This document shows positions 1-41,356 of a stretch of 64,000 bases of DNA, piece by piece. Origin of the DNA: Escherichia coli (GTDB taxonomy: Bacteria > Pseudomonadota > Gammaproteobacteria > Enterobacterales > Enterobacteriaceae). Where the stretch lies: assembly GCF_044647545.1 (NCBI RefSeq), contig NZ_CP172818.1; one strand, 5' to 3'. Positions within the stretch are counted from its first letter, which is position 1; each line of letters begins with the position of its first letter. A model generated the notes under the pieces. The model ran no database searches, was not told the DNA's origin, and worked only from the letters and a program-made list of their open reading frames with translations. A program made the position numbers and the translations under genes.

Positions 1-1476
<1,476 letters not shown>

Positions 1477-1675: not shown

Positions 1676-1705
1676 AATGTAAATTACGCGTTAACAGCGC
1701 AGAAC

Positions 1706-2182: not shown

Positions 2183-2276
2183 GATTGACTCCGCAAGTTT
2201 GTATTCAAAAACTGCTCAGTGAGAAATGTAAAAACCATGTTAAACATGCCAGTGATGCAAAGGTAGTGCAAGAGTT

Positions 2277-3050
2277 ATGGATCGTATAATTGAAAAATTA
2301 GATCACGGCTGGTGGGTCGTCAGCCATGAACAAAAATTATGGTTGCCGAAGGGAGAATTGCCATATGGCGAAGCGGCAAATTTCGATCTTGTGGGTCAGC
2401 GCGCACTACAAATCGGCGAATGGCAGGGGGAACCTGTTTGGTTAGTACAACAGCAGCGGCGTCACGATATGGGGTCGGTACGTCAGGTCATTGATCTCGA
2501 TGTTGGGCTGTTTCAACTGGCCGGACGAGGCGTACAACTGGCGGAGTTTTACCGATCGCATAAATACTGTGGTTACTGCGGGCATGAAATGTATCCAAGC
2601 AAAACCGAATGGGCGATGCTGTGCAACCATTGCCGTGAGCGTTACTACCCGCAAATCGCCCCCTGCATTATTGTTGCCATCCGTCGCGATGATTCGATCC
2701 TCCTCGCCCAGCATACCCGCCATCGTAACGGTGTCCATACGGTACTTGCCGGATTCGTCGAAGTGGGCGAAACCCTCGAGCAGGCTGTCGCGCGGGAAGT
2801 GATGGAAGAGAGCGGAATTAAAGTTAAAAACTTGCGTTACGTGACTTCCCAGCCGTGGCCGTTTCCTCAGTCTTTAATGACCGCGTTTATGGCGGAATAT
2901 GACAGCGGCGAGATCGTGATCGACCCGAAAGAATTGCTTGAGGCGAACTGGTATCGCTATGACGATTTGCCGTTACTCCCGCCGCCCGGCACCGTAGCGC
3001 GCCGTCTGATAGAAGATACAGTGGCGATGTGTCGGGCAGAGTATGAGTGA
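2277..3050 (+). CDS. nudC: NADH pyrophosphatase (Nudix hydrolase NudC)
   Basis: 257-aa ORF with the zinc-binding CGYCGHEM...CNHC motif and Nudix box; synteny. Confidence 0.93.
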
Positions 3051-3089
3051 TGATACACTGACCGCCTGACGCACTAAGGAACAGCCAAA

Positions 3090-4154
3090 ATGACCGAACT
3101 TAAAAACGATCGTTATCTGCGGGCGCTGCTGCGCCAGCCCGTTGATGTCACTCCAGTATGGATGATGCGCCAGGCGGGTCGCTATCTACCGGAATATAAA
3201 GCCACGCGCGCCCAGGCGGGCGATTTTATGTCGCTGTGCAAAAATGCCGAGCTGGCGTGCGAAGTGACTTTGCAACCGCTGCGTCGCTATCCGCTGGATG
3301 CGGCGATCCTCTTTTCCGATATCCTCACCGTGCCAGACGCGATGGGTTTAGGGCTCTATTTTGAAGCCGGAGAAGGTCCGCGTTTTACCTCGCCAGTCAC
3401 CTGCAAAGCCGACGTCGATAAACTGCCAATTCCGGACCCGGAAGATGAGCTGGGTTACGTGATGAACGCGGTGCGTACCATTCGTCGCGAACTGAAAGGC
3501 GAAGTGCCGCTGATTGGTTTTTCCGGCAGCCCGTGGACGCTGGCGACCTACATGGTGGAAGGCGGCAGCAGCAAAGCGTTCACCGTGATCAAAAAAATGA
3601 TGTATGCCGATCCACAGGCGCTGCACGCGCTACTCGATAAACTGGCGAAAAGCGTCACTTTGTATCTGAATGCGCAGATTAAAGCCGGTGCTCAGGCAGT
3701 GATGATTTTCGACACCTGGGGCGGCGTGCTTACCGGGCGCGATTATCAACAGTTCTCGCTCTATTACATGCATAAAATTGTTGATGGTTTACTGCGTGAA
3801 AACGACGGTCGCCGCGTGCCAGTCACGCTGTTTACCAAAGGTGGCGGACAGTGGCTGGAAGCGATGGCAGAAACCGGTTGCGATGCGCTGGGCCTCGACT
3901 GGACAACGGACATCGCCGATGCGCGCCGCCGCGTCGGCAATAAAGTCGCGTTGCAGGGCAATATGGATCCGTCGATGCTGTATGCGCCGCCTGCCCGCAT
4001 TGAAGAAGAAGTGGCGTCTATACTTGCCGGTTTCGGTCACGGCGAAGGTCATGTCTTTAACCTTGGTCACGGCATTCATCAGGATGTGCCGCCAGAACAT
4101 GCTGGCGTGTTTGTGGAGGCAGTGCATCGCCTGTCTGCGCCTTATCATCTGTAA
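3090..4154 (+). CDS. hemE: Uroporphyrinogen decarboxylase
   Basis: 354-aa [39 protein letters not shown]... Confidence 0.95.
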
Positions 4155-4163
4155 GGAGTGGTT

Positions 4164-4835
4164 ATGGATCTCGCGTCATTACGCGCTCAACAAATCGAAC
4201 TGGCTTCTTCTGTGATCCGCGAGGATCGACTCGATAAAGATCCACCGGATCTGATCGCCGGAGCCGATGTCGGATTTGAGCAGGGCGGAGAAGTGACGCG
4301 AGCGGCGATGGTGCTGCTGAAATACCCCTCGCTTGAGCTGGTGGAGTATAAAGTGGCCCGCATCGCCACCACCATGCCTTACATTCCAGGTTTTCTCTCC
4401 TTCCGCGAATATCCTGCGCTGCTGGCAGCGTGGGAGATGCTGTCACAAAAGCCGGATTTAGTGTTTGTCGATGGTCACGGGATCTCGCATCCTCGCCGTC
4501 TTGGTGTCGCCAGCCATTTTGGCTTATTGGTGGATGTGCCAACGATAGGCGTGGCGAAAAAACGGCTCTGCGGTAAATTCGAACCGCTCTCCAGCGAACC
4601 GGGCGCGCTGGCCCCACTGATGGATAAAGGCGAGCAGCTGGCCTGGGTCTGGCGCAGCAAAGCGCGCTGTAACCCATTGTTTATCGCTACCGGCCATCGG
4701 GTCAGCGTGGACAGCGCGCTGGCGTGGGTACAACGCTGCATGAAAGGCTATCGTCTGCCGGAGCCAACGCGCTGGGCGGACGCGGTGGCCTCGGAACGTC
4801 CGGCGTTCGTGCGCTATACAGCAAATCAGCCCTAA
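4164..4835 (+). CDS. nfi: Endonuclease V
   Basis: [29 protein letters not shown]...; ATG at 4164 is preceded by AGGAG. The track's GTG at 4158 is probably not the start. Confidence 0.9.
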
Positions 4836-4877
4836 TTCAGGTAAACTGCGGATAATTTCCGTATTTGAGAACTCAAC

Positions 4878-5468
4878 ATGTTACAAAACCCAATTCATCT
4901 GCGTCTGGAGCGCCTGGAAAGCTGGCAGCACGTCACTTTCATGGCTTGCTTATGCGAACGCATGTACCCCAATTACGCCATGTTCTGCCAGCAAACCGGT
5001 TTTGGTGATGGGCAGATTTACCGCCGCATTCTCGATCTCATCTGGGAAACGCTGACCGTCAAAGACGCAAAAGTAAATTTCGACAGCCAACTGGAGAAAT
5101 TTGAAGAAGCGATTCCTTCAGCCGACGATTTCGATCTGTACGGCGTTTATCCGGCAATCGATGCCTGCGTGGCGTTAAGTGAACTGGTCCATTCGCGTTT
5201 GAGTGGTGAAACGCTCGAACACGCGGTGGAAGTGAGTAAGACCTCCATCACGACCGTTGCGATGCTGGAAATGACTCAGGCTGGTCGCGAAATGAGCGAT
5301 GAAGAGCTCAAAGAAAACCCAGCTGTAGAGCAAGAATGGGACATTCAGTGGGAAATATTCCGACTTTTAGCTGAGTGCGAAGAACGCGATATCGAGCTGA
5401 TAAAAGGCCTTAGGGCAGACCTGCGTGAGGCGGGTGAGAGCAATATTGGTATAATTTTTCAGCAATAA
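4878..5468 (+). CDS. yjaG: DUF416-family protein YjaG
   Basis: 196-aa ORF; synteny between nfi and hupA. Confidence 0.85.
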   Translation: MLQNPIHLRLERLESWQHVTFMACLCERMYPNYAMFCQQTGFGDGQIYRRILDLIWETLTVKDAKVNFDSQLEKFEEAIPSADDFDLYGVYPAIDACVALSELVHSRLSGETLEHAVEVSKTSITTVAMLEMTQAGREMSDEELKENPAVEQEWDIQWEIFRLLAECEERDIELIKGLRADLREAGESNIGIIFQQ

Positions 5469-5654
5469 GACCAGAAAACGTGATTTAACGCCTGATTTGT
5501 CGTACCTGGAGTCTTCCCTTTCGCCCCCCGTCTGGTCTACATTTGGGGGGCGAAAAAAAGTGGCTATCGGTGCGTGTATGCAGGAGAGTGCTATTCTGGC
5601 ATTTCCGTCGCACTCGATGCTTAGCAAGCGATAAACACATTGTAAGGATAACTT

Positions 5655-5927
5655 ATGAACAAGACTCAACTGATTGATGTAATTGCAGAGAAAGCAGAAC
5701 TGTCCAAAACCCAGGCTAAAGCTGCTCTGGAGTCCACTCTGGCTGCAATTACTGAGTCTCTGAAAGAAGGCGATGCTGTACAACTGGTTGGTTTCGGTAC
5801 CTTCAAAGTGAACCACCGCGCTGAGCGTACTGGCCGCAACCCGCAGACCGGTAAAGAAATCAAAATTGCCGCAGCTAACGTACCGGCATTTGTTTCTGGC
5901 AAGGCACTGAAAGACGCAGTTAAGTAA
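5655..5927 (+). CDS. hupA: DNA-binding protein HU-alpha
   Basis: 90-aa [93 protein letters not shown]. Confidence 0.97.
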
Positions 5928-5939
5928 GATTGCGTGGCA

Positions 5940-6635
5940 GTGAACAGTTTTAACGAAGGGGTGGTTTCACCCCTTTTGTCTTTCTGGCGTCGATCATTGA
6001 TGCTGGCAGGCGCTCTGTTTCTCACTGCCTGTAGTCACAACTCTTCACTTCCTCCCTTTACCGCCAGTGGATTTGCTGAAGACCAGGGCGCGGTACGCAT
6101 CTGGCGAAAAGACAGCGGCGATAATGTGCATCTGCTTGCCGTGTTTAGCCCGTGGCGCAGTGGCGATACCACCACGCGAGAGTATCGCTGGCAGGGCGAT
6201 AACCTCACGCTCATCAATATCAATGTTTACAGCAAACCGCCGGTGAATATTCGCGCGCGTTTTGACGATCGCGGCGATCTGAGCTTTATGCAACGTGAAT
6301 CCGATGGGGAAAAGCAGCAGCTTTCTAACGACCAAATCGATTTATACCGTTATCGTGCTGATCAGATCCGCCAGATTAGCGATGCCTTACGTCAGGGGAG
6401 AGTCGTGCTGCGCCAGGGGCGCTGGCATGCGATGGAACAGACCGTGACCACCTGCGAAGGGCAAACCATTAAACCTGATTTAGATTCGCAGGCGATAGCG
6501 CATATCGAGCGCCGCCAGAGCCGCTCTTCTGTTGATGTCAGCGTGGCATGGCTGGAAGCGCCCGAAGGTTCGCAATTACTGTTGGTGGCAAACTCTGATT
6601 TCTGTCGCTGGCAACCCAACGAGAAAACGTTCTGA
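5940..6635 (+). CDS. yjaH: Putative lipoprotein YjaH (DUF1481 family)
   Basis: Open frame from GTG 5934/5940. The likely functional start is ATG 6000, which gives a lipoprotein signal peptide MLAGALFLTAC and lies downstream of the hupA terminator. Confidence 0.75.
   Translation: MNSFNEGVVSPLLSFWRRSLMLAGALFLTACSHNSSLPPFTASGFAEDQGAVRIWRKDSGDNVHLLAVFSPWRSGDTTTREYRWQGDNLTLININVYSKPPVNIRARFDDRGDLSFMQRESDGEKQQLSNDQIDLYRYRADQIRQISDALRQGRVVLRQGRWHAMEQTVTTCEGQTIKPDLDSQAIAHIERRQSRSSVDVSVAWLEAPEGSQLLLVANSDFCRWQPNEKTF
5955..5980 (+). terminator. Rho-independent terminator after hupA
   Basis: GGGGTGG-TTT-CACCCC hairpin followed by TTTTGTCTTTC. Confidence 0.6.
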
Positions 6636-6636
6636 T

Positions 6637-7062
6637 TTACCAGTGGCCCATACCCATATGACCGCCACCACCGCAGCCGCCGTAGCCCATGCCCATTCCG
6701 GCTCCGCGCGGAATACCCGCTTCAGCCATCGCAATATCTCGTTTCACCCGTAACTCATCTAACGACTGACGCAAATTCTCCATCTCTTTGGCGACCGCGT
6801 TAATTTTGCTGCTATCCGGTGGGTTCGCGGCTAACAGGGCATTGTATTCATAACGCTTCGTCACCAGTTGCTGTTGCAGTGCGCTGCTTTGAGCGTAAAA
6901 GTCATTATGGATTTTCTGCCACGCTGTCTGTTGTTCGCTGGTCAAAGGCGCGGCATTTTGCTGCCACATACCATGTCCGCCGTGAGCAAATGCCGATGTC
7001 GATCCCATCGCCATTGCTGAAAGCGCCATCATTACCAGGGCAATTTTCGTGTTCCGTTTCAT
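6637..7062 (-). CDS. zraP: Zinc-resistance-associated periplasmic protein ZraP
   Basis: 141-aa ORF MKRNTKIALVMMALSAMAMGSTSAFA..., with GGAGG before the ATG at 7062. Gly/Met/His-rich C-terminus. Confidence 0.9.
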   Translation of the reverse strand: MKRNTKIALVMMALSAMAMGSTSAFAHGGHGMWQQNAAPLTSEQQTAWQKIHNDFYAQSSALQQQLVTKRYEYNALLAANPPDSSKINAVAKEMENLRQSLDELRVKRDIAMAEAGIPRGAGMGMGYGGCGGGGHMGMGHW

Positions 7063-7097
7063 GGTTAATCCTCCAGTGGTTGTCTTACTTCGGGTAT

Positions 7098-7113
7098 TGC
7101 ATCTTCCGTGCCA
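7098..7113 (-). promoter_or_regulatory. Sigma-54 promoter of zraP
   Basis: Reverse complement reads TGGCAC-GGAAG-ATGCA, a near-consensus match to TGGCAC-N5-TTGCA, about 35 bp upstream of the zraP start. Confidence 0.7.
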
Positions 7114-7253
7114 ACGGCGAAACGCTGATATGACGGGTAATCTGGCATGATAAACGAGTAAAAATGACTCGCCTGCTGCGGGTAGCGAGTCATTTTTACT
7201 CATTGAAACTTAAGCCTTTGTGTTACAGCGCAGGGTAAGCGCTGATAAAAGAT

Positions 7254-7269
7254 GGCATGATTTCTGCCG
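7254..7269 (+). promoter_or_regulatory. Sigma-54 promoter of zraSR
   Basis: TGGCAT-GATTT-CTGCC about 30 bp upstream of the zraS start; divergent from the zraP promoter. Confidence 0.55.
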
Positions 7270-7299
7270 TCAGAAAGGGATGAGCAGGCAAAGAAGAAG

Positions 7300-8676
7300 A
7301 TGCGTTTTATGCAACGTTCTAAAGATTCCTTAGCTAAATGGTTAAGCGCGATCCTCCCCGTGGTCATTGTTGGGCTGGTGGGGCTGTTTGCGGTGACAGT
7401 GATTCGCGATTATGGGCGCGAGACTGCCGCCGCCAGACAAACGCTGCTGGAAAAAGGCAGTGTACTTATTCGCGCTCTTGAATCCGGCTCGCGCGTCGGT
7501 ATGGGGATGCGCATGCATCATGCGCAGCAGCAGGCCTTACTGGAAGAAATGGCCGGGCAGCCTGGAGTACGTTGGTTTGCGGTCACGGATGAACAAGGAA
7601 CAATCGTGATGCATAGCAACTCCGGCATGGTGGGAAAACAGCTTTATTCCCCGCAGGAAATGCAGCAGTTACATCCGGGAGATGAAGAAGCGTGGCGGCG
7701 GATCGATAGCGCAGACGGCGAGCCTGTTCTGGAAATTTATCGCCAGTTTCAACCGATGTTTGCTGCTGGAATGCACCGGATGCGCCATATGCAGCAATAT
7801 GCCGCGACACCACAAGCAATTTTCATTGCTTTCGACGCCAGTAACATTGTGAGTGCCGAAGATCGTGAGCAGAGAAATACCCTGATTATCCTCTTCGCCC
7901 TGGCGACGGTCTTGCTGGCAAGCGTGTTGTCATTCTTCTGGTATCGTCGCTATCTGCGCTCGCGCCAGTTGTTGCAGGATGAAATGAAGCGCAAAGAGAA
8001 GCTGGTGGCGCTGGGGCATCTTGCGGCAGGTGTTGCCCACGAAATCCGTAACCCACTTTCCTCGATTAAAGGACTGGCGAAATACTTTGCCGAACGCGCG
8101 CCAGCAGGGGGAGAAGCGCATCAACTGGCGCAGGTGATGGCGAAAGAAGCCGACCGTTTAAACCGCGTGGTAAGCGAGTTGCTGGAACTGGTTAAGCCAA
8201 CGCATCTGGCTTTGCAGGCGGTGGATCTCAACACGCTGATTAACCACTCATTACAGCTGGTAAGCCAGGATGCAAACAGCCGGGAGATCCAGTTACGCTT
8301 TACCGCCAACGACACATTACCGGAAATTCAGGCCGATCCGGACAGGCTGACTCAGGTCCTGTTGAATCTCTATCTCAATGCCATTCAGGCTATTGGTCAG
8401 CATGGCGTGATTAGCGTTGTGGCAAATGAAAGCGGAGCGGGCGTGAAAATCAGCGTTACCGACAGCGGTAAGGGAATTGCGGCAGATCAGCTTGAAGCCA
8501 TCTTCACCCCGTACTTCACCACCAAAGCCGAAGGTACCGGACTGGGGCTGGCGGTCGTGCATAATATTGTTGAACAACACGGTGGTACAATTCAGGTCGC
8601 AAGCCAGGAGGGAAAAGGCGCAACGTTCACCCTTTGGCTTCCGGTCAATATTACGCGTAAGGACCCACAAGGATGA
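7300..8676 (+). CDS. zraS: Sensor histidine kinase ZraS
   Basis: 458-aa ORF with N-terminal transmembrane segment, H-box (HEIRNPLSSIKG) and ATPase G-boxes. Confidence 0.9.
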   Translation: MRFMQRSKDSLAKWLSAILPVVIVGLVGLFAVTVIRDYGRETAAARQTLLEKGSVLIRALESGSRVGMGMRMHHAQQQALLEEMAGQPGVRWFAVTDEQGTIVMHSNSGMVGKQLYSPQEMQQLHPGDEEAWRRIDSADGEPVLEIYRQFQPMFAAGMHRMRHMQQYAATPQAIFIAFDASNIVSAEDREQRNTLIILFALATVLLASVLSFFWYRRYLRSRQLLQDEMKRKEKLVALGHLAAGVAHEIRNPLSSIKGLAKYFAERAPAGGEAHQLAQVMAKEADRLNRVVSELLELVKPTHLALQAVDLNTLINHSLQLVSQDANSREIQLRFTANDTLPEIQADPDRLTQVLLNLYLNAIQAIGQHGVISVVANESGAGVKISVTDSGKGIAADQLEAIFTPYFTTKAEGTGLGLAVVHNIVEQHGGTIQVASQEGKGATFTLWLPVNITRKDPQG

Positions 8677-9998
8677 CGCACGATAATATCGATATTCTGG
8701 TGGTGGATGATGACATTAGCCACTGCACTATTTTGCAGGCTTTGCTGCGCGGCTGGGGCTATAACGTGGCGCTTGCGAACAGCGGGCGACAGGCGCTGGA
8801 GCAGGTGCGGGAACAGGTTTTTGATCTTGTGCTTTGCGATGTGCGAATGGCAGAGATGGACGGCATCGCCACGCTCAAAGAGATCAAAGCGTTAAATCCG
8901 GCAATTCCGGTACTGATTATGACCGCGTACTCCAGCGTCGAGACGGCGGTAGAGGCGTTGAAAACCGGGGCGCTGGATTATCTCATCAAGCCGCTGGATT
9001 TCGATAACCTGCAGGCGACGCTGGAAAAGGCGCTCGCACATACGCACAGTGTTGACGCTGAAACGCCTGCGGTGTCTGCCAGCCAGTTCAGTATGGTCGG
9101 TAAAAGCCCGGCGATGCAACACCTGCTCAGTGAAATCGCCCTCGTCGCGCCATCGGAAGCCACGGTGCTGATCCACGGCGATTCCGGCACCGGTAAAGAG
9201 CTGGTCGCCAGGGCGATTCACGCCAGTAGCGCACGTAGCGAAAAACCGCTGGTAACGCTCAACTGCGCGGCGCTCAACGAATCCTTGCTGGAGTCTGAAT
9301 TGTTCGGTCACGAAAAAGGGGCGTTTACCGGGGCCGACAAACGCCGGGAAGGGCGCTTTGTTGAGGCGGACGGCGGCACGTTGTTTCTCGATGAAATTGG
9401 CGATATCTCGCCGATGATGCAGGTGCGTCTGCTACGTGCGATTCAGGAGCGCGAAGTTCAGCGTGTCGGTAGCAACCAGACTATTTCGGTTGATGTCCGG
9501 CTGATTGCGGCGACCCATCGCGATCTTGCCGCAGAGGTGAATGCCGGGCGTTTTCGCCAGGATCTCTACTATCGCCTGAACGTGGTGGCGATTGAAGTAC
9601 CATCGCTGCGTCAGCGGCGGGAAGATATTCCTCTGCTGGCAAACCATTTTCTTCAGCGCTTTGCCGAGCGTAATCGCAAGGCGGTAAAAGGTTTTACGCC
9701 CCAGGCGATGGATCTGCTGATTCACTACGACTGGCCGGGAAATATTCGTGAACTGGAAAACGCGGTGGAACGGGCGGTGGTGCTGCTGACCGGGGAATAT
9801 ATTTCCGAACGCGAGCTGCCGCTGGCGATTGCGAGTACGCCGATCCCGCTGGTACAAAGTCAGGATATTCAGCCGCTGGTGGAAGTCGAAAAAGAGGTGA
9901 TTCTTGCGGCACTGGAGAAAACGGGCGGCAACAAAACCGAAGCCGCCCGTCAGTTAGGGATCACGCGCAAAACGCTCTTGGCAAAACTGTCGCGTTAG
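8673..9998 (+). CDS. zraR: Sigma-54-dependent response regulator ZraR
   Basis: 441-aa ORF with receiver domain, AAA+ sigma-54 activator domain (GESGTGKE, GAFTGA) and C-terminal HTH. Start overlaps the zraS stop. Confidence 0.95.
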
Positions 9999-11284
9999 TT
10001 CTGCTCGCGTTCGATAGCGCGCCAGCCGATATCTTTCCGGCAGAAGCAGTCGTCCCAATGGATATCGGTCATTAAGGCATAAGCGCGTTTCTGCGCTTCT
10101 GCCACGGTATGACCCAGCGCGGTGACGCACAGTACGCGCCCGCCGCTGGTCACTACCTGCTCGTCATCCGCCAGTTTCGTGCCAGCGTGGAACACTTTGC
10201 CGTCAGACACTTCTTCCAGCGGCAGGCCGTGGATCACATCGCCGGTGCGGTAATCGCCCGGATATCCACCCGCAGCCATCACCACGCCGAGAGAAGCGCG
10301 TTCATCCCACTCGGACGTTTTCTCGTCCAGCTTGCCTTCACAGGCCGCCAGGCAAAGCTCAACCAGATCGGACTTCATGCGCAGCATAATCGGCTGGGTT
10401 TCTGGATCGCCAAAGCGGCAGTTAAATTCAATAACCTTCGGATTGCCCTGTTTGTCGATCATCAGGCCCGCGTAGAGAAAACCAGTGTAGGTGTTGCCTT
10501 CTGCCGCCATGCCTTTCACGGTTGGCCAGATGATTCGTTCCATCGTGCGCTGATGAACCTCATCGGTCACTACTGGCGCAGGGGAGTAAGCGCCCATCCC
10601 GCCGGTGTTCGGCCCGGTATCTTTATCGCCTACGCGTTTGTGATCCTGGCTGGTGGCCATCGGCAGCACATGCTCGCCGTCTACCATCACGATAAAGCTC
10701 GCTTCTTCGCCGTCGAGGAACTCTTCGATAACAATGCGATGCCCCGCGTCGCCAAACGCGTTGCCCGCCAGCATATCGTGAACAGCCGCTTCCGCTTCTT
10801 CCAGCGTCATCGCTACGATAACGCCTTTCCCGGCAGCCAGACCGTCAGCTTTAATGACGATTGGCGCGCCTTTCTCACGCAGATACGCCAGCGCAGGTTC
10901 TACCTCGGTGAAGTTCTGGTATTCCGCCGTAGGGATCTTATGGCGGGCCAGGAAATCTTTGGTAAACGCTTTTGAGCCTTCCAGTTGGGCCGCACCTGCG
11001 GTTGGGCCGAAGATTTTCAGCCCGGCGGCGCGGAAGGTATCAACCACGCCTTTCACCAGCGGCGCTTCCGGGCCGACGATGGTTAGATCTACCTTTTCGT
11101 TTTGTGCGAAATCCAGCAGCGCCGGGATATCGGTTACGCCGATATCGACGTTTTGCAGTGCAGGTTCCAGCGCAGTGCCTGCGTTACCCGGAGCAACAAA
11201 AACAGTTTCAACCAGCGGCGACTGCGCCGCTTTCCAGGCCAGCGCGTGCTCGCGCCCGCCATTACCGATCACTAATACTTTCAT
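9995..11284 (-). CDS. purD: Phosphoribosylamine-glycine ligase
   Basis: ORF MKVLVIGNGGREHALAWKAAQSPL... (429 aa from the ATG at 11284). Confidence 0.95.
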   Translation of the reverse strand: MKVLVIGNGGREHALAWKAAQSPLVETVFVAPGNAGTALEPALQNVDIGVTDIPALLDFAQNEKVDLTIVGPEAPLVKGVVDTFRAAGLKIFGPTAGAAQLEGSKAFTKDFLARHKIPTAEYQNFTEVEPALAYLREKGAPIVIKADGLAAGKGVIVAMTLEEAEAAVHDMLAGNAFGDAGHRIVIEEFLDGEEASFIVMVDGEHVLPMATSQDHKRVGDKDTGPNTGGMGAYSPAPVVTDEVHQRTMERIIWPTVKGMAAEGNTYTGFLYAGLMIDKQGNPKVIEFNCRFGDPETQPIMLRMKSDLVELCLAACEGKLDEKTSEWDERASLGVVMAAGGYPGDYRTGDVIHGLPLEEVSDGKVFHAGTKLADDEQVVTSGGRVLCVTALGHTVAEAQKRAYALMTDIHWDDCFCRKDIGWRAIEREQN

Positions 11285-11295
11285 CTGTCGCTCCA

Positions 11296-12885
11296 TTAAT
11301 GGCGGAAGTGGCGCATGTCGGTGAAGAGCATCGCAATACCGTGCTCGTCGGCGGCGGCAATTACTTCGTCATCACGGATAGAACCGCCAGGCTGGATTAC
11401 ACAGGTCACACCCGCAGCGGCGGCGGCATCAATACCGTCGCGGAACGGGAAGAATGCGTCAGAAGCCATCGAGGAACCTTTCACTTCCAGGCCTTCATCG
11501 GCCGCTTTAATACCGGCGATTTTCGCGGAGTACACACGGCTCATCTGGCCTGCGCCAATACCGATGGTCATATTGTTTTTGGCATAGACGATAGCATTGG
11601 ATTTCACGAACTTCGCCACTTTCCAGCAGAACAGCGCATCACGCAGTTCCTGTTCGCTCGGCTGACGTTTGGTGACGACGCGCAGTTCTTCTGCACCGAC
11701 CATCCCCAGGTCTCGATCCTGAACCAGCAGACCGCCGTTCACGCGTTTGAAATCAAGACCCGGAACACGCTCGCCCCACTGACCGCAGGTCAGGACGCGT
11801 ACGTTCTGTTTGGCGGCGGTGATTTTCAGGGCTTCTTCGCTGGCGGACGGCGCAATAATCACTTCAACAAACTGACGAGAAATGATGGCCTGCGCGGTTT
11901 CCGCATCCAGCTCGCGGTTAAAGGCGATAATGCCGCCGAATGCGGAGGTCGGGTCGGTTTTGTACGCGCGATCGTAAGCATCAAGAATGGAATTGCCGAT
12001 AGCCACGCCGCAAGGGTTGGCGTGCTTCACAATCACACATGCCGGCTCGGCGAACTCTTTCACGCACTCCAGCGCCGCATCGGTATCGGCGATGTTGTTA
12101 TAAGAGAGGGCTTTACCCTGAACCTGGGTTGCGGTAGCAACGGAGGCTTCTTTGACATTCTCTTCTATATAGAAGGCAGCCTGCTGGTGGCTGTTCTCGC
12201 CGTAACGCATATCCTGCTTCTTAATGAAGTTCAGGTTCAGCGTGCGTGGGAAGCGACCGGCGGCTTCTTTGCTTTCACCGTGGTAAGCCGGAACCATGCT
12301 GCCGAAGTAGTTGGCAATCATGCTGTCGTAGGCGGCGGTGTGTTCGAAGGCTTTGATGGCAAGGTCAAAGCGAGTTTCCAGAGTCAGGGAGCCTTCATTG
12401 GCATCTATCTCTTTAATAATGGCGTCGTAGTCGCTGCTCTTCACCACGATGGCGACATCTTTATGGTTCTTGGCGGCAGAGCGCACCATCGTTGGGCCGC
12501 CGATATCGATGTTCTCAACCGCATCTTCCAGCGAGCAACCTTCACGGGCAACGGTCTGGGCGAACGGATACAGGTTAACAACCACCATATCGATAGGCTG
12601 GATCTGATGTTCTTCCATAATGGCATCGTCCTGGCCGCGACGGCCCAGAATGCCACCATGTACTTTCGGATGCAGGGTCTTCACGCGTCCATCCATCATC
12701 TCCGGGAAACCGGTGTAATCGGAAACTTCGGTTACCGGCAGACCTTTTTCTGCTAACAGACGGGCTGTGCCCCCTGTAGACAGCAGCTCCACACCGCGTG
12801 CGGAAAGTGCCTGGGCGAATTCGACGATACCGGCTTTGTCAGAAACACTGAGCAGAGCGCGGCGGACTGGACGACGTTGTTGCAT
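11296..12885 (-). CDS. purH: Bifunctional AICAR transformylase / IMP cyclohydrolase
   Basis: 529-aa [44 protein letters not shown]... Confidence 0.95.
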
Positions 12886-12992
12886 GGTAAATCCCCTGGA
12901 TTTGACTATTACAGAGAGCGTTAGCTGAATTTTTCGCGAAAAACTCAGCTAACGCCCCTAACGGGGCATCCTTATTTTTCGCCCGCATTGTA

Positions 12993-13008
12993 ACGAAAAC
13001 GTTTGCGC
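12993..13008. promoter_or_regulatory. PurR operator (PUR box) of the purHD operon
   Basis: ACGAAAACGTTTGCGC; its reverse complement GCGCAAACGTTTTCGT matches the 16-bp palindromic PurR box, about 110 bp upstream of purH. Confidence 0.7.
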
Positions 13009-13180
13009 AACGCTCGCGAATTTTTCTCTTTCAATGGTGATCAAAATTTTGACAGTGGTTACCGTGGGAAAAATACAGAAATTACATTGATGATTGTGGA
13101 TAACTCTGTGCGTAAAAAGGTATAAAGCGGGGTTTTGCTGGGGAATGCAGCAGTCAGTCATTTTTCTGCAATTTTTCTAT

Positions 13181-13208
13181 TGCGGCCTGCGGAGAACTCC
13201 CTATAATG
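13181..13208 (+). promoter_or_regulatory. rRNA operon promoter P1
   Basis: TTGCGG, 16-bp spacer, TATAAT, then GC-rich discriminator GCGCC. Confidence 0.65.
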
Positions 13209-13289
13209 CGCCTCCATTGACACGGCGGATGTGAATCACTTCACACAAACAGCCGGTTCGGTTGAAGAGAAAAATCCTGAAATTCAGGG

Positions 13290-13318
13290 TTGACTCTGAA
13301 AGAGGAAAGCGTAATATA
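13290..13318 (+). promoter_or_regulatory. rRNA operon promoter P2
   Basis: TTGACT, 17-bp spacer, TAATAT. Confidence 0.6.
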
Positions 13319-13357
13319 CGCCACCTCGCGACAGTGAGCTGAAAGCCGCGTCGCAAC

Positions 13358-13370
13358 TGCTCTTTAACAA
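13358..13370 (+). promoter_or_regulatory. boxA antitermination element in the rRNA leader
   Basis: TGCTCTTTAACAA matches the rrn boxA consensus. Confidence 0.8.
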
Positions 13371-13501
13371 TTTATCAGACAATCTGTGTGGGCACTCGAA
13401 GATACGGATTCTTAACGTCGCAAGACGAAAAATGAATACCAAGTCTCAAGAGTGAACACGTAATTCATTACGAAGTTTAATTCTTTGAGCATCAAACTTT
13501 T

Positions 13502-15043
<1,542 letters not shown>

Positions 15044-15128
15044 CCTTAAAGAAGCGTACTTTGAAGTGCTCACACAGATTGTCTGATAGAAAGTGAAAAG
15101 CAAGGCGTCTTGCGAAGCAGACTGATAC

Positions 15129-15204
15129 GTCCCCTTCGTCTAGAGGCCCAGGACACCGCCCTTTCACGGCGGTAACAGGGGTTCGAATCCCCTAGGGGAC
15201 GCCA
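15129..15204 (+). tRNA. gltV: tRNA-Glu (UUC) in the 16S-23S spacer
   Basis: GTCCCCTTCGTCTAGAGGCCCAGGACACCGCCCTTTCACGGCGGTAACAGGGGTTCGAATCCCCTAGGGGACGCCA. Confidence 0.95.
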
Positions 15205-15399
15205 CTTGCTGGTTTGTGAGTGAAAGTCACCTGCCTTAATATCTCAAAACTCATCTTCGGGTGACGTTTGAGATATTTGCTCTTTAAAAATCTGGATCAA
15301 GCTGAAAATTGAAACACTGAATAGTCGAAAGATTATTCGTGAGTCTCTCAAATTTTCGCAACACGATGATGAATCGAAAGAAACATCTTCGGGTTGTGA

Positions 15400-18303
<2,904 letters not shown>

Positions 18304-18395
18304 ACAACGCCGAAGGTGTTTTGGCGGATTGAGAGAAGATTTTCAGCCTGATACAGATTAAATCAGAACGCAGAAGCGGTCTGATAAACAGAATT

Positions 18396-18515
18396 TGCCT
18401 GGCGGCCTTAGCGCGGTGGTCCCACCTGACCCCATGCCGAACTCAGAAGTGAAACGCCGTAGCGCCGATGGTAGTGTGGGGTCTCCCCATGCGAGAGTAG
18501 GGAACTGCCAGGCAT
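18396..18515 (+). rRNA. rrfE: 5S ribosomal RNA
   Basis: TGCCTGGCGGCCTTAGCGCGGTGGTCCCACCTGACCCCATGCCGAACTCAGAAGTGAAACGCCGTAGCGCCGATGGTAGTGTGGGGTCTCCCCATGCGAGAGTAGGGAACTGCCAGGCAT; 120 nt. Confidence 0.95.
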
Positions 18516-18602
18516 CAAATTTAGCAGAAGCCCTGCGCTGGCGCACGCTCCAGCTTCACCGCGCGATAGCACTCGATAGGCGGTCGCACTTACCAGGCCA
18601 GC

Positions 18603-19046
18603 TTATTCCCCCACATATGCCAGATTCAGCAATGGATACGGTTTCCCCAAATCGTCCACCTCAGAGCGTCCCGTAACCTTAAAACCCATCTTCTTATAGA
18701 ACCCAACAGCCTGCTTATTTTGCTCATTAACATTGGTTGTCAGTTCCGGTGCCATCGAGAGCGCATGTTCCACCAGCATCCGGCCCACGCCACAACCGCG
18801 CGCATCAGGATCGACAAAAAGCGCATCCATATGCTGCCCACTTAACAACATAAACCCAACCAGCCGATCCCGCTCATTAACCGCGACCCACAACGGCGCT
18901 TCCGGCAAGAAGGAACGAACTAGCTCCTCCAGCTCGGCCCGATACTCTGCTGATAAAAAATCGTGAGTGGCATCGACAGAACGACACCAAATCGCAACGA
19001 GTTCCTCCCCTTCCTCATGCCGTGAGCGGCGAATACTAATAACCAT
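18603..19046 (-). CDS. yjaB: GNAT-family N-acetyltransferase YjaB
   Basis: 147-aa ORF MVISIRRSRHEEGEELVAIWCRSVDATHDFLSAEYRAELE... Confidence 0.9.
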   Translation of the reverse strand: MVISIRRSRHEEGEELVAIWCRSVDATHDFLSAEYRAELEELVRSFLPEAPLWVAVNERDRLVGFMLLSGQHMDALFVDPDARGCGVGRMLVEHALSMAPELTTNVNEQNKQAVGFYKKMGFKVTGRSEVDDLGKPYPLLNLAYVGE

Positions 19047-19144
19047 TTTCTCTCCTTTTCGTCATTCTTATATTCTAACGTAGCCTTTTCCTTGAAACTT
19101 TCTCACCTTCAACATGCAGACTCGACATTGGCAAATTTTCTGGT

Positions 19145-19190
19145 TATCTTCAGCTATCTGGATGTCTAAACGTATAAGCGTATGTAGTGA
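19145..19190. promoter_or_regulatory. metA promoter region with MetJ operator (met-box repeats)
   Basis: Tandem 8-bp repeats resembling AGACGTCT (GGATGTCT AAACGTAT AAGCGTAT) immediately upstream of metA. Confidence 0.5.
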
Positions 19191-19202
19191 GGTAATCAGG
19201 TT

Positions 19203-20132
19203 ATGCCGATTCGTGTGCCGGACGAGCTACCCGCCGTCAATTTCTTGCGTGAAGAAAACGTCTTTGTGATGACAACTTCTCGTGCGTCTGGTCAGGAAAT
19301 TCGTCCGCTAAAGGTACTTATCCTTAACCTGATGCCGAAGAAGATCGAAACTGAAAATCAGTTTCTGCGCCTGCTTTCAAACTCACCTTTGCAGGTCGAT
19401 ATTCAGCTGTTGCGCATTGATTCCCGTGAATCGCGCAACACGCCCGCAGAGCATCTGAATAACTTCTACTGTAACTTTGAAGATATTCAGGAACAAAACT
19501 TTGACGGTCTGATAGTTACCGGCGCGCCGCTGGGCCTGGTGGAGTTTAATGATGTCGCTTACTGGCCGCAGATCAAACAGGTGCTGGAGTGGTCGAAAGA
19601 TCACGTCACCTCGACGCTGTTTGTCTGCTGGGCGGTACAGGCCGCGCTAAATATCCTCTACGGCATTCCTAAGCAAACTCGCACCGACAAACTCTCTGGC
19701 GTTTACGAGCATCATATTCTCCATCCTCATGCGCTTCTGACGCGTGGCTTTGATGATTCATTCCTGGCACCGCATTCGCGCTATGCTGACTTTCCGGCAG
19801 CGTTGATTCGTGATTACACCGATCTGGAAATTCTGGCAGAGACGGAAGAAGGGGATGCATATCTGTTTGCCAGCAAAGATAAGCGCATTGCCTTTGTGAC
19901 GGGCCATCCCGAATATGATGCGCAAACGCTGGCGCAGGAATATTTCCGCGATGTGGAAGCCGGACTAGACCCGGAAGTACCGTATAACTATTTCCCGCAC
20001 AATGATCCGCAAAACAAACCGCGAGCGAGCTGGCGTAGTCACGGTAATTTGCTGTTTACCAACTGGCTCAACTATTACGTCTACCAGATCACGCCATACG
20101 ATCTACGGCACATGAATCCAACGCTGGATTAA
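19203..20132 (+). CDS. metA: Homoserine O-succinyltransferase
   Basis: 309-aa [48 protein letters not shown]... Confidence 0.95.
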
Positions 20133-20176
20133 TCTTCTGTGATAGTCGATCGTTAAGCGATTCAGCACCTTACCTC

Positions 20177-20200
20177 AGGCACCTTCGGGTGCCTTTTTTA
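20177..20200 (+). terminator. Rho-independent terminator after metA
   Basis: AGGCACC-TTCG-GGTGCCT hairpin followed by TTTTTTA. Confidence 0.75.
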
Positions 20201-20259
20201 TTTCCGAAACGCACCTCAGTAGGTGAATAAAATTTATTCATATTGTTATCAATAAGTTA

Positions 20260-20330
20260 TCAAGTATTTTTAATTAAAATGGAAATTGTTTTTGATTTTG
20301 CATTTTAAATGAGTAGTCTTAGTTGTGCTG
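20260..20330 (+). promoter_or_regulatory. aceBAK promoter / IclR operator region
   Basis: AT-rich segment AAATGGAAATTGTTTTTGATTTTGCATTTTAAATGAGTAG upstream of aceB, with GGAAAT half-site-like repeats. Assigned by position; exact site not verified. Confidence 0.4.
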
Positions 20331-20400
20331 AACGAAAAGCGCACAACAATCCTTCGTTCACAGTGGGGAAGTTTTCGGATCCATGACGAGGAGCTGCACG

Positions 20401-22002
20401 ATGACTGAACAGGCAACAACAACCGATGAACTGGCTTTCATAAGGCCGTATGGCGAGCAGGAGAAGCAAATTCTTACTGCCGAAGCGGTAGAATTTCTGA
20501 CTGAGCTGGTGACGCATTTTACGCCACAACGCAATAAACTTCTGGCAGCGCGCATTCAGCAGCAGCAGGATATCGATAACGGAACGTTGCCTGATTTTAT
20601 TTCGGAAACAGCTTCCATTCGTGATGCTGACTGGAAAATTCGTGGTATTCCCGCGGACTTACAAGATCGTCGGGTAGAGATTACCGGCCCGGTTGAGCGC
20701 AAGATGGTGATCAACGCGCTCAACGCCAATGTGAAAGTCTTTATGGCCGATTTCGAAGATTCACTGGCCCCGGACTGGAACAAAGTGATCGATGGGCAAA
20801 TTAACCTGCGCGATGCGGTTAACGGCACCATCAGCTATAGCAATGAAGCAGGCAAAATTTATCAGCTCAAGCCCAATCCAGCGGTTTTGATTTGTCGGGT
20901 ACGCGGTCTGCACTTGCCGGAAAAACATGTCACCTGGCGTGGTGAGGCAATCCCCGGTAGCCTGTTTGATTTTGCGCTCTATTTCTTCCACAACTATCAG
21001 GCACTGTTGGCAAAGGGCAGCGGTCCCTATTTCTATCTGCCGAAAACCCAGTCCTGGCAGGAAGCGGCCTGGTGGAGCGAAGTCTTCAGCTATGCAGAAG
21101 ATCGCTTTAATCTGCCGCGCGGCACCATCAAGGCGACGTTGCTGATTGAAACGCTGCCCGCCGTGTTCCAGATGGATGAAATCCTTCACGCGCTGCGTGA
21201 CCATATTGTTGGTCTGAACTGCGGTCGTTGGGATTACATCTTCAGTTATATCAAAACGCTGAAAAACTATCCCGATCGCGTCCTGCCAGATAGACAGGCA
21301 GTGACGATGGATAAACCCTTCCTGAATGCTTACTCACGCCTGTTGATTAAAACCTGCCATAAACGCGGTGCTTTTGCGATGGGCGGTATGGCGGCATTTA
21401 TTCCGAGCAAAGATGAAGAGCGCAATAACCAGGTGCTCAACAAAGTAAAAGCGGATAAATCGCTGGAAGCTAATAACGGTCACGATGGCACATGGATTGC
21501 CCACCCAGGCCTTGCGGATACGGCAATGGCGGTATTCAACGACATTCTCGGCTCCCGTAAAAATCAGCTTGAAGTGATGCGCGAACAAGACGCGCCGATT
21601 ACTGCCGATCAGCTGCTGGCACCTTGTGATGGTGAACGCACCGAAGAAGGTATGCGCGCCAACATTCGCGTGGCTGTGCAGTACATCGAAGCGTGGATCT
21701 CTGGCAATGGCTGTGTGCCGATTTATGGCCTGATGGAAGATGCGGCGACGGCTGAAATTTCCCGTACCTCAATCTGGCAGTGGATCCATCATCAAAAAAC
21801 GTTGAGCAATGGCAAACCGGTGACTAAAGCCTTGTTCCGCCAGATGCTGGGCGAAGAGATGAAAGTCATTGCCAGCGAACTGGGCGAAGAACGTTTCTCC
21901 CAGGGGCGTTTTGACGATGCCGCACGCTTGATGGAACAGATCACCACTTCCGATGAGTTAATTGATTTCCTGACCCTGCCAGGCTACCGCCTGTTAGCGT
22001 AA
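20401..22002 (+). CDS. aceB: Malate synthase A
   Basis: [40 protein letters not shown]... (533 aa from the ATG at 20401). Confidence 0.95.
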
Positions 22003-23423: not shown

Positions 23424-25968
<2,545 letters not shown>

Positions 25969-32481: not shown

Positions 32482-32609
32482 TACTTCTCCGGTTAGTAAG
32501 AAATCACGGGAGCCATGCTACCACTGTGATTTTAACCGCTTACTGACATGGCTCACGATGTTGCGCATTGCTTCTGGAAAGGATTTCCAGACGCAGGTCA
32601 CGAATTTCC

Positions 32610-35600
32610 ATAAAACCAGACTGTTTTTTCATAAACACTCATTTACGATGACCCCCATCTCCCGAAAATCAGACAAACCACCATTACCGATAATCCCTAA
32701 ACAAACACGAAAATCACCATACCGTTAATTTTTTTTTACAACGTACCATCACACTCAAACCACCCACAATCCACAAACTCGAAATGTCTTACTCATATAT
32801 CACCACCCAGCGTTTGTAAACCATAACCAGTTGACGATTCCATTTTCACCATACCCCATTACAAACACCCAAACGAGCCCTCGTCATTTTTCACAAATTA
32901 CCCCATATCGCTACGATATTCACCCCTTTACGAAACCCATTCACCCATACCATTTCATTTCAACGTACTGCATTGAAAATAAAAAAACACACCATATTCC
33001 AAATCCAAATCGCCACCCGTAACCCACGTTCCCCAACCATGACCCAACACCTCCAACGGTCCCATCAGCGACTTTATCCGTTAATTACCGTCATCAATTT
33101 CCCGCGTTCTCGCGCCTCTTCCATCGCATACGCCGATGACCCCACATACCCGTGTATTAAAACACCAGTTCCCTACCCCAACCTGATCCTCTTTTAATTA
33201 AATCGTTTGATCGATCATTCGTACAAAAACCCACCCGTGAATACTTCAAATTAAAGATGCCTTTCATACGCAAAACATGCTCACCAACCTCTTAATTTTT
33301 CTCTGTTCCATGATCTCCGTTAATCATCAATTCAACGTGATATTTCTGATGTTTCACTTTACCCACTGTGATTTAACTGATGTAACACCATGATCACGCA
33401 CGCCACCGAACCCACAGACTAACAGTACCACCTCAGAAACCGAGAAAAAGAAAGCATCAAATATTTCACCCCATCATCGAACACCATCGTAACCGACCAC
33501 CACGATAAAACCCCACAATCTCATCCAGGGTCACAAATCGAATCGCTCACATATTTTTATCATACCGCTACGAACAGCGAACAATCATCCGAACCAACGC
33601 CAATCTCACCCAACGCGAACATGCAGAATACAATCGAAACGTGTTCTTCCGCTGCTTTATCCGCCGCGTGCTGAAACTACGTGATTACCAAACACCGTCA
33701 CACCTCCTCCCACCAACAACGCGATCGATTCCTCGATGCTTTCTACCAACGATAACCAAATCGGAGATTATGCCGATCAGAATCCAAATCCCCCGCCGAG
33801 TTCATCCACCAACTATCAATTCCACGTACCACCACATAATTCGTTTTTAAATCACCAAATTAAACCAATCACCTACACAATTAACGACGATGATCTGAAA
33901 TTCATCCACACTCCCATTCCGCAATACAAAAAAAAAATATACAATAATTTTATACTTATTTCCATGATTTTCACCTTTTAATTCTCATCCCTCCTTTAAA
34001 CATATGTACACACGCTATTATTTAATTTGATTAATGTTCGTTTATTTTTCGATAATATTGATTAGATCTACCTACGAGCGTAAACCATATACCCAAGATT
34101 ATTTAATCATGAAACGTTAATAACTCATCTAATGAAATCTTTTTAACTGTTTCTTACCAAGTCACCATACCCCAATATTCATACCTATTTTTACCCCTCG
34201 AACCATTCTAACATCTTTCGATGAAAAGATAAAAAAGTTTCGTCCTATATTCGGGTTTGATAATCCGCGACGGCTTTTTCATATTACCACGTTAACCTTC
34301 ATTCCCGTCGCACCTACGCAATAATGTCCGGCGAATTCATCGTTATAAATTCGTCATTGCAGATAATAATGCGTTCGTTACCACTTTAACCAACGGTATA
34401 CCTCCGTGATCACGTCATCAATCCACGTAATGTTCATCAAAATCCTCCTCCGCTGTTCCACCTGTCTCCAACGACGCAGATTTCTTTCGATTTCTCCGTT
34501 CACAGAAATCCATCAATATTCATGCTTCCTGTTATCAACCATTCACCCACGCAGAGAAAGCCGCTGATTACCCCAACGAGATTCGCATCCAACATCGCTC
34601 CCATTCCACGGGCTCCGCACTGTAAACCACCAATCACCATCATCTTGATTTAATCTTACGTACTTTTCCACTTTCTACGATGTCTCCCGTTCTCGCCGCA
34701 CAAATTCAACCCTCGACCTCATCCGTATATCTAACTGATTCCACATCCAACTAATTTCCATCGCAAAAAATGCATTACCATAAAACCTGATCGTTTTTCC
34801 GCCCGCAATGTTATTTACTCCGTATAACCCGTTCAACACAGATAACAAACAAAATCACCATTCTCTAATCTTCCCCCCCAAAAATCGTTTTTTATACCTT
34901 CACGCACTGCTCGACGTGATATTCCGTCCACCCACCTTCTTCATATTCCCGTCCATCCTGTTTTTTCCAGAATCCCCCGCGATACCGACCACACGATACC
35001 GTCTTACCCATTCTTTCGACCAGACGATGAAGCTATTACGCACTTTATCGCGTACACTCTCCTTCTACCTTCCACCGACTTTCTAGAAACATTCACAATC
35101 ACCATGTGTTGTTCTACGTACCGTCCCCACCCTCGACATCAGAAAAAGTTTTTTATATACCATTTTTTCGAATCACTTCGTTATTCATACTCCCCACCTT
35201 TCTCATCACCACAACCGAAATTACCCGTTATTACCAACTCGATCACAAAATGATAATTTCTCTATATATTTACCTCTTCGCTTAGATTTCCCAAAATGAT
35301 ACCTTTACGATTCATATTTCCACCCACTAATATCACATCTTACATCCTTTCTAATAATTCACCACAACCAACCAATCCGACCATACAATAATATTTTACC
35401 AAATTTAAATTTCATAAACAATATTTTAGATAATAGACCCGTAATTTTTATATAAACATCGAAATTTTTATTCATAAATTCACTTTTATAAAAATTAATA
35501 TATTTTCCACCATGCAAACAATCTTATTTTTCTTCACCACAAGCCAAATGGAATATCTTTTTAATTTATTCATTCGATAAGATGTTTTTTCTCATATTCG

Positions 35601-41339: not shown

Positions 41340-41356
41340 TTAAAAACCTTAATAAC

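What the first reader, a model, noticed from the sequence alone, without database searches (positions are those of the whole stretch)
18516..18602. yjaA is absent and no intrinsic terminator follows the 5S rRNA; rRNA operon transcription is convergent on yjaB
Seen in sequence: only 87 bp separate the 5S rRNA 3' end (18515) from the yjaB stop (18603, opposite strand). That interval has a short GC palindrome (GCGCTGGCGC) but no hairpin-plus-U-tract terminator. From established knowledge, K-12 carries yjaA between rrfE and yjaB, and yjaA is another phylogroup marker. Inference: read-through from the very strong rRNA promoters would run antisense into yjaB unless terminated by Rho or a structure I cannot see.
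Basis: partly seen in the sequence, partly recalled or inferred. Interest (0 to 1): 0.4.

Follow-up and report, generated by a model that had tools for sequence, protein, structure and literature searches.

The report
Missing rrnE terminator: likely sequence defect
As written, this sequence has no transcription terminator between the 5S rRNA gene and yjaB, but the comparable E. coli genomes examined do have a strong one there (one low-quality assembly aside), and the window carries other damage-like private deletions, so this is most likely a sequence error, not biology.

Summary
The 5S rRNA ends at 18515, yjaB (minus strand) stops at 18603, yjaA is absent, and the 87-bp spacer has no hairpin followed by a U-tract.

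The interpretation does not hold. Absence of yjaA with rrnE converging on yjaB is ordinary: about 2,817 of 5,426 complete E. coli genomes have this layout. In 16 of 17 junctions examined, a strong rrnB-T2-like terminator (-16 to -20 kcal/mol plus a T-run) sits about 15 nt after the 5S gene.

The window's flanks are 100% identical to ST648-type (phylogroup F) genomes. Its spacer, 18531-18598, matches none of 5,426 genomes, nor five GenBank genomes with identical YjaB, JGI metagenomes or GTDB representatives. It reads as a mangled ST648-type spacer, 122-124 bp cut to 87, with the hairpin gone.

The window has seven other private lesions. They include the lost stop codons of aceK, rluF and psiE, and a 3.5-kb stretch where 68% of G bases are deleted. 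One RefSeq assembly (BS-04) shows similar deletion-only damage at this same junction.

Most likely (about 0.7) this is a sequence defect. If real (about 0.2), Rho-resistant rRNA polymerases would run antisense through yjaB and into metA. Interest is low.

The parts
13502..18303 (+). rrnE body: 16S rRNA (13502-15043), tRNA-Glu (15129-15201) and 23S rRNA (15400-18303), downstream of purH/purD
   Evidence: Rfam hits. The purD and purH ORFs lie upstream.
18396..18515 (+). 5S rRNA (rrfE), intact
   Evidence: Rfam RF00001 at 18398-18513, 93.2 bits. The mature ends were read from the sequence. It is identical to relatives.
18516..18530 (+). 5S trailer CAAATTTAGCAGAAG, retained and identical to the ST648 type; in relatives the terminator hairpin starts immediately after it
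   Evidence: Alignments A2 and A3.
18531..18598 (+). Aberrant spacer. The ST648-type terminator hairpin (GGCCATCC-GTCA-GGATGGCC plus T5) and the left half of the REP-like palindrome are missing. There are several small indels and a 15-nt extra piece, CGGTCGCACTTACCA. It is unique to this window.
18534..18545 (+).
   Evidence: Sequence; custom scan; alignment.
18603..19046 (-). yjaB (GNAT acetyltransferase, 147 aa), convergent with rrnE; its protein is identical to that of ST648-type genomes
19203..20132 (+). metA, the first plus-strand gene that read-through would enter in the sense direction
20177..20203 (+). First strong plus-strand intrinsic terminator downstream of the 5S gene (AGGCACC-TTCG-GGTGCCT plus TTTTTATTT), after metA

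Best explanation
The spacer as written is probably not what the organism carries. The window is an ST648-type (phylogroup F) E. coli region. Its true rrfE-yjaB junction is almost certainly the ordinary 122-124-bp one. That junction runs: 5S, a 15-nt trailer, a T2-like intrinsic terminator (8-bp GC-rich stem, 4-nt loop, T5), a REP-like palindrome, two CACGATAG repeats, then the yjaB stop. In the window this stretch has been mangled to 87 bp and the hairpin is lost. The cause is a consensus or assembly error at a structured, repeat-adjacent site, or some other corruption or editing of the sequence. Under this reading, rrnE terminates normally about 35-40 nt past the 5S gene, and nothing unusual happens at yjaB. 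Shown: the uniqueness of the spacer, the perfect flanks and the co-occurring lesions. Inferred: that the cause is technical.
For: (1) The flanks are 100.0% identical to a dozen or more ST648-type genomes over 1-13400 and 18603-22000. The 68 nt between them match none of 5,426 complete genomes. (2) Five independent GenBank genomes encoding the identical YjaB all carry the intact ST648-type spacer; across the aligned junction they differ from one another at a single base, in the 5S trailer. 118 RefSeq genomes carry it at 99% identity or better. (3) Two diagnostic 24-25-mers of the window's spacer give 0 hits in JGI metagenomes and in GTDB species representatives. Plasmids and phages give only chance-level hits. 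(4) The spacer is recognisably derived from the ST648 type: longest common subsequence 74 of 90 against 66.6 +/- 1.9 for shuffles, with shared blocks in the same order. That would need several deletions, indels and an insertion within about 120 bp of a genome with essentially no other differences. (5) The window has seven more private lesions at sites where ST648, FDAARGOS_497 and, over the stretch it covers, TUM1586 agree with one another. These are scattered deletions that remove the stop codons of aceK (574 to 588 aa), rluF (290 to 311 aa) and psiE (136 to 145 aa); a shortened T-run; and the sor operon, where 2 kb is missing and 703 of 1,031 G bases are then deleted. Loss of two-thirds of one base cannot be natural. 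(6) The aberrant 588-aa AceK is not on record among about 15 billion public proteins. (7) There is a precedent. RefSeq assembly BS-04 has 24 of its 29 indel bases in 3.4 kb packed into this same hairpin/REP spacer, and it also loses the terminator.
Against: There are no reads, so the defect is inferred, not shown. Unlike the other lesions, which are almost purely deletions, the spacer holds about 16 bases that deletion cannot explain, including a 15-nt extra piece with no template elsewhere in the window. So it is not the same error type as the G dropout. Three of the seven small lesions hit stop codons, which is more targeted than random read error and remains unexplained. A real complex deletion in a single isolate would also be absent from every database.
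Confidence: 0.7

Rival explanations
1. The deletion is real and private. This isolate lost the only terminator of rrnE through a complex rearrangement of the hairpin/REP spacer. RNA polymerase carrying the rrn antitermination complex passes the 5S gene and transcribes antisense through yjaB (444 nt), colliding with yjaB transcription and making antisense RNA. It then enters metA in the sense direction and stops mainly at the metA terminator (20177-20203), about 1.7 kb past the 5S gene. 5S 3' maturation would still work because the 15-nt trailer is intact.
For: There is no hairpin plus U-tract between 18516 and 20176 on the plus strand. The 5S gene, its trailer and yjaB are intact. rrn antitermination complexes resist Rho and partly resist intrinsic terminators (PMC6614801). 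Hairpin and REP sequences are plausible hotspots for slippage or template switching. The 15-nt extra piece is not what simple read error produces.
Against: No other genome or metagenome has this spacer. Every rrn operon of E. coli K-12 ends in at least one terminator (PMC8144298), which suggests selection for one. The window's other lesions, especially the 68% G dropout and three destroyed stop codons, show that the sequence is unreliable in just this kind of place.
Confidence: 0.22
2. Termination is non-canonical but functional. Rho, or a structure without a U-tract, stops rrnE transcription in the spacer or early in antisense yjaB, so the missing hairpin has no consequence.
For: The plus-strand RNA from 18516 to about 19140 is C-rich and G-poor (27-41% C, 10-25% G, C/G 1.1-2.7). 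It is untranslated, which is what a Rho loading site looks like.
Against: The rrn antitermination complex is built to resist Rho (PMC6614801). Relatives with the same C-rich downstream sequence nevertheless keep a strong intrinsic terminator, so Rho alone is evidently not relied upon. No stable structure is predicted (z = 0.23).
Confidence: 0.05
3. The spacer is a foreign allele brought in by recombination from another lineage or species.
For: rrn 3' ends do get exchanged. FDAARGOS_497, ST648 and SMN152SH1 carry three different terminator cassettes at this junction.
Against: No donor was found. The spacer gives no match in 5,426 E. coli genomes. Its diagnostic 24-25-mers give none in GTDB representatives of 100,044 species or in JGI metagenomes. 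Plasmids and phages give only chance-level hits. The ends of the tract fall within a few bases of the 5S trailer and the yjaB stop, which leaves no room for homologous arms.
Confidence: 0.03

Closest known systems
rrnB T2 terminator (AGAAGGCCATCCTGACGGATGGCCTTTTTGCG), and its copies at the ends of other rrn operons
   Same: Relatives carry this hairpin or a close variant (GGCCATCC-GTCA-GGATGGCC, or GGCCCAGTC-GGAA-GACTGGGCC) about 15 nt after rrfE, preceded by the same CAAATT(A/T)AGCAGAAG trailer that the window keeps. T2 was reported to stop 100% of transcripts (Orosz et al. 1991, as cited in PMC8144298).
   Different: The window has the trailer but neither the hairpin nor the T-run.
Ordinary yjaA-negative rrfE-yjaB junction of ST648-type (phylogroup F) E. 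coli
   Same: The neighbours are the same (purHD-rrnE-yjaB-metA-aceBAK-iclR, with no arpA). The YjaB protein is identical and the flanks are 100% identical.
   Different: The spacer is 87 bp instead of 122-124 bp. The terminator and half of the REP-like palindrome are gone, and there is a 15-nt extra piece.
yjaA-positive junction (K-12-like), the state used in Clermont phylotyping
   Same: rrfE is followed within about 20 nt by a strong intrinsic terminator.
   Different: The terminator is a different one (AAAACCCCGG-TCAATAAGG-CCGGGGTTTTTT), followed by yjaA on the plus strand. The whole cassette is absent here.
Degraded junction in RefSeq assembly BS-04 (NZ_CP172819.1)
   Same: This is the same junction, with the terminator hairpin lost. 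The changes are packed into the hairpin/REP spacer while the flanks are nearly free of indels.
   Different: In BS-04 the damage is deletion-only. The window's spacer also contains bases that deletion cannot explain.

Membership tests
Intrinsic (Rho-independent) terminator at the end of an rrn operon | GC-rich hairpin of roughly -10 kcal/mol or better shortly after the last gene | tested here: not met
   The best stems between 18516 and 19250 are -6 to -7.4 kcal/mol and irregular. Controls score -14.7 to -24.5 kcal/mol.
Intrinsic (Rho-independent) terminator at the end of an rrn operon | U-tract immediately 3' of the hairpin | tested here: not met
   No site in the spacer reaches a T-tail score of 3. 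Sixteen of 17 comparison junctions score 3.2 or more.
Ordinary yjaA-negative rrfE-yjaB junction | yjaA absent; 5S and yjaB convergent and about 110-125 bp apart | tested here: inconclusive
   yjaA is absent and the two genes are convergent, but the spacer is 87 bp against 112-125 bp in relatives.
Ordinary yjaA-negative rrfE-yjaB junction | T2-like terminator followed by a REP-like palindrome (GACGCTGGCGCGTC) | tested here: not met
   The hairpin is absent. Only a remnant, TGCGCTGGCGCA, survives.
Rho-dependent terminator | Untranslated, C-rich, G-poor RNA of about 80 nt (a rut-like region) | tested here: met
   The C/G ratio is 1.1-2.7 across 18516-19139. This tests composition only.
Rho-dependent terminator | Rho-dependent release of the polymerase that actually transcribes the region | not testable with these tools
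   The literature says rrn antitermination complexes resist Rho (PMC6614801).
Sequence or assembly defect | The variant is private: absent from close relatives and from all collections searched | tested here: met
Sequence or assembly defect | Other biologically implausible private lesions on the same contig | tested here: met
   68% of G bases are deleted over 3.5 kb. Three stop codons are destroyed. There are scattered deletions at gene ends.
Sequence or assembly defect | Disagreement with the raw reads of the source isolate | not testable with these tools
   No reads are available and the source is unknown. The aberrant AceK is not on record.

The most novel reading that the evidence does not exclude
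A natural ST648-lineage isolate really has lost the only terminator of rrnE. One of the most heavily transcribed units in the cell, read by Rho-resistant polymerases, would then run antisense across yjaB and sense into metA, ending at the metA terminator. That would be a natural experiment in unterminated rRNA transcription and convergent collision.
Probability: 0.2. Interest if true: 0.45.

Novelty: not a real feature. Interest (0 to 1): 0.1.

Why it matters
If real, this would be the first natural E. coli rrn operon without a terminator. It would allow direct tests of how far antitermination-modified polymerases travel, what they do to a convergent gene (yjaB) and a co-directional one (metA), and whether Rho can stop them. 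As things stand, the value is practical. The absence of yjaA and the convergence on yjaB are ordinary. The missing terminator is a warning that this window, roughly 18.5-46.5 kb, contains local corruption that will produce other false 'discoveries': read-through fusions of aceK, rluF and psiE, and a G-depleted 'island' in the sor operon.

Tried and rejected
(1) The built-in terminator scan alone is not trustworthy here. It misses the genuine T2-like terminator in ST648 because it extends the stem through A-U pairs and uses up the T-run. I replaced it with a custom hairpin plus T-tail scan validated on five control junctions.

(2) I tested whether the spacer is an ST648-type spacer with deletions only. 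It is not: the longest common subsequence is 74 of 90, so about 16 bases are not derivable by deletion.

(3) I tested whether the spacer shows the same G dropout as 32.6-36.4 kb. It does not: the spacer keeps its G bases and loses A-rich parts.

(4) I looked for a local template for the 15-nt extra piece, as template switching would require. There is no second copy in the window within 3 mismatches, and no inverted or direct repeat nearby.

(5) I looked for a foreign donor allele and found none in E. coli genomes, GTDB representatives, JGI metagenomes, plasmids or phages.

(6) I tried to identify the source record through the aberrant AceK protein. It is not on record.

(7) I checked whether the terminator had moved elsewhere in the window. 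It has not.

Full report
**What is there.**
The window carries purD and purH, then a complete rRNA operon, then yjaB, metA and aceBAK. The operon comprises 16S (13502-15043), tRNA-Glu, 23S (15400-18303) and 5S (Rfam 18398-18513; mature ends 18396-18515). yjaB is the minus-strand ORF 18603-19046, 147 aa, and metA is 19203-20132. In yjaA-positive genomes the order is rrf, yjaA, yjaB.

**Is there a terminator?**
- The built-in scan reports none on the plus strand in 18300-19300.
- That scan also fails on the genuine terminator of a close relative, because it extends the stem through A-U pairs and consumes the T-run.
- I therefore wrote a scan that forces a hairpin to close just before each T-rich tail.
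- It recovers every control: ST648 -15.6 kcal/mol with tail score 3.78; FDAARGOS_497 -15.5/4.44; NRZ14408 -14.7/3.78; a yjaA-positive strain -15.4/4.38; SMN152SH1 T1 -24.5/3.97 and T2 -14.7/3.94.
- In the window, from the 5S end to the start of metA, it finds only irregular stems of -6 to -7.4 kcal/mol with tail scores of 2.7 or less.
- The region folds no better than shuffles (z = 0.23).
- The first strong plus-strand terminator is the metA terminator at 20177-20203.

**What relatives have.**
- The window's flanks are 100.0% identical to many ST648-type (phylogroup F) genomes, over 1-13400 and 18603-22000.
- With a 161-nt query across the junction, no genome among 5,426 covers more than the yjaB end. 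The spacer alone gives no match at E of 10 or below.
- With a 381-nt query, the only full-length hit is 88% identical (BS-04).
- The ST648-type junction reads: 5S, CAAATTTAGCAGAAG, hairpin GGCCATCC-GTCA-GGATGGCC, T5, a REP-like palindrome (GACGCTGGCGCGTC), two CACGATAG repeats, then the yjaB stop. It is 122-124 bp long, depending on where the 5S end is set.
- That junction is found at 99% identity or better in 118 genomes. Its general form, covering at least 80% of the query, is found next to yjaB in 2,817 of 5,426 genomes.
- Five further GenBank genomes that encode the identical YjaB all carry it unchanged.
- In a sample of 17 junctions from different lineages, 16 have a hairpin of -16 to -20 kcal/mol with a T-tail score of 3.2 or more.
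- The hairpin is the one known from rrnB T2. SMN152SH1 even carries the whole rrnB-like T1-spacer-T2 unit next to yjaB.

So absence of yjaA and convergence on yjaB are ordinary, and they normally come with a strong terminator. yjaA-positive strains have a different terminator ahead of yjaA.

**What happened in the window.**
- The trailer 18516-18530 and the last few bases before the yjaB stop agree with the ST648 type.
- The 68 nt between them are a recognisable but mangled version of it. The shared blocks (TGCGCTGG, GCTCCAGCTT, CGATAGCAC, CGATAGG) keep their order. The longest common subsequence is 74 of 90, against 66.6 +/- 1.9 for shuffles.
- The hairpin, the T-run and the left part of the REP element are gone.
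- There are several 1-3-nt indels, and a 15-nt piece (CGGTCGCACTTACCA) that has no counterpart.
- That piece has no second copy in the window.
- Two diagnostic 24-25-mers occur nowhere in JGI metagenomes or GTDB species representatives. Plasmids and phages give only chance-level hits.

**The rest of the window.**
A base-by-base comparison with ST648, FDAARGOS_497 and TUM1586 shows no differences over tens of kilobases, apart from a few natural indels and seven more private lesions. All the lesions lie between 23 and 46.5 kb:
1. An extra CA inside a REP element at 23366.
2. At 25119-25135, 21 bases lost in scattered gaps. This removes the aceK stop codon, taking the protein from 574 to 588 aa.
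3. At 32578 to about 36385, in the sor operon, 2 kb is missing. After that, 703 of 1,031 G, 100 of 1,174 C, 71 of 1,052 T and 6 of 1,079 A are deleted, with GC skew down to -0.69.
4. At 37290, the rluF stop codon is lost (290 to 311 aa).
5. At 41340, one T is lost just after the pgi stop.
6. At 45915-45918, a T7 run behind a hairpin is shortened.
7. At 46453 and 46458, the psiE stop codon is lost (136 to 145 aa).

Loss of two-thirds of one base over 3.5 kb cannot be natural. The aberrant AceK is not on record among about 15 billion public proteins. Finally, RefSeq assembly BS-04 packs 24 of its 29 indel bases in 3.4 kb into this very spacer and also loses the terminator. This junction is therefore a demonstrated trouble spot for consensus sequences.

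**Best explanation.**
The spacer as written is most likely a sequence defect, either an assembly or consensus error or some other corruption. The organism most likely has the ordinary T2-like terminator (confidence about 0.7). Two points count against this. The spacer contains bases that simple deletion cannot explain. Three of the small lesions hit stop codons, which looks more targeted than random error. I cannot say what process produced the defect.

**If it is real (about 0.2).**
- Polymerases leaving rrnE carry the Nus/SuhB antitermination complex. It resists Rho-dependent termination and weakens intrinsic termination (PMC6614801).
- The RNA downstream is C-rich and G-poor (C/G 1.1-2.7) and would suit Rho, but not on these polymerases.
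- The expected outcome is antisense transcription across yjaB, sense transcription of metA, and termination at 20177-20203.
- Every rrn operon of E. coli K-12 ends in one or two terminators (PMC8144298), so such a strain would be an exception.
A foreign allele brought in by recombination gets about 0.03, because no donor exists in any collection searched.

**Verdict.**
The feature is most likely not real, and interest is low. Reads or a PCR across rrfE-yjaB would settle the question.

Noticed in passing
window 32578-36385: In the sor (sorbose PTS) operon region, the first 2 kb of the cluster is missing relative to ST648 and FDAARGOS_497. After that, 68% of G bases (703 of 1,031) are deleted, against 8.5% of C, 6.7% of T and 0.6% of A. 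GC skew is -0.3 to -0.7 and all reading frames are destroyed. This is a base-specific dropout and cannot be natural.
   Followed up: partly
window 25119-25135: Twenty-one bases are lost in scattered 1-10-nt gaps at the 3' end of aceK. The stop codon is gone, and the ORF runs 588 aa instead of 574, into antisense iclR. This protein is not on record in the public protein collection.
   Followed up: partly
window 37290-37291 and 46453/46458: Small private deletions remove exactly the stop codons of rluF (C plus TTA lost; 290 to 311 aa) and psiE (C and T lost; 136 to 145 aa). Together with aceK, three of the seven small lesions hit stop codons, and all the small lesions lie at the ends of plus-strand genes. 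The cause is unexplained.
   Followed up: partly
window 23366; 41340; 45915-45918: There are further private micro-lesions: an extra CA inside a REP element after aceA; one T lost right after the pgi stop; and the T7 run of a hairpin plus T-run upstream of psiE shortened by 5-6 nt.
   Followed up: partly
window 25100-25200 (aceK-iclR) and 18516-18602: Both arpA (aceK abuts iclR) and yjaA are absent. This fits phylogroup F and agrees with the 100% identity to ST648-type genomes.
   Followed up: partly
window 37715-37815 (lysC) and 53282-53342 (lamB-malM): These are natural differences from strain ST648. The window lacks the prophage and the ISEcp1-CTX-M insertion that disrupt lysC in ST648 and FDAARGOS_497. 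It has about 90 nt more between lamB and malM, as TUM1586 does.
   Followed up: partly
L004 1636-1917 (E. coli SMN152SH1, NZ_CP024618.1): Here the rrn operon next to yjaB ends in a complete rrnB-like dual terminator (T1, a roughly 140-nt inter-terminator segment with a partial 5S 3' end, then T2). This shows that whole 3' cassettes are exchanged between rrn operons. ST648 itself has murI (the rrnB context) upstream of the operon that abuts yjaB.
   Followed up: no
L001 1636-1726 (E. coli BS-04, NZ_CP172819.1): This RefSeq genome has a deletion-riddled version of the same spacer, with 24 bases lost in 45 nt and the terminator hairpin destroyed, while the flanks are almost free of indels. It is probably a consensus error in that assembly.
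   Followed up: partly
L005 5893-5917: The built-in terminator scan misses the clear T2-like terminator (8-bp GC-rich stem, T5). It extends the stem through A-U pairs, which leaves too few T bases in the tail. Negative results from that scan need an independent check.
   Followed up: yes
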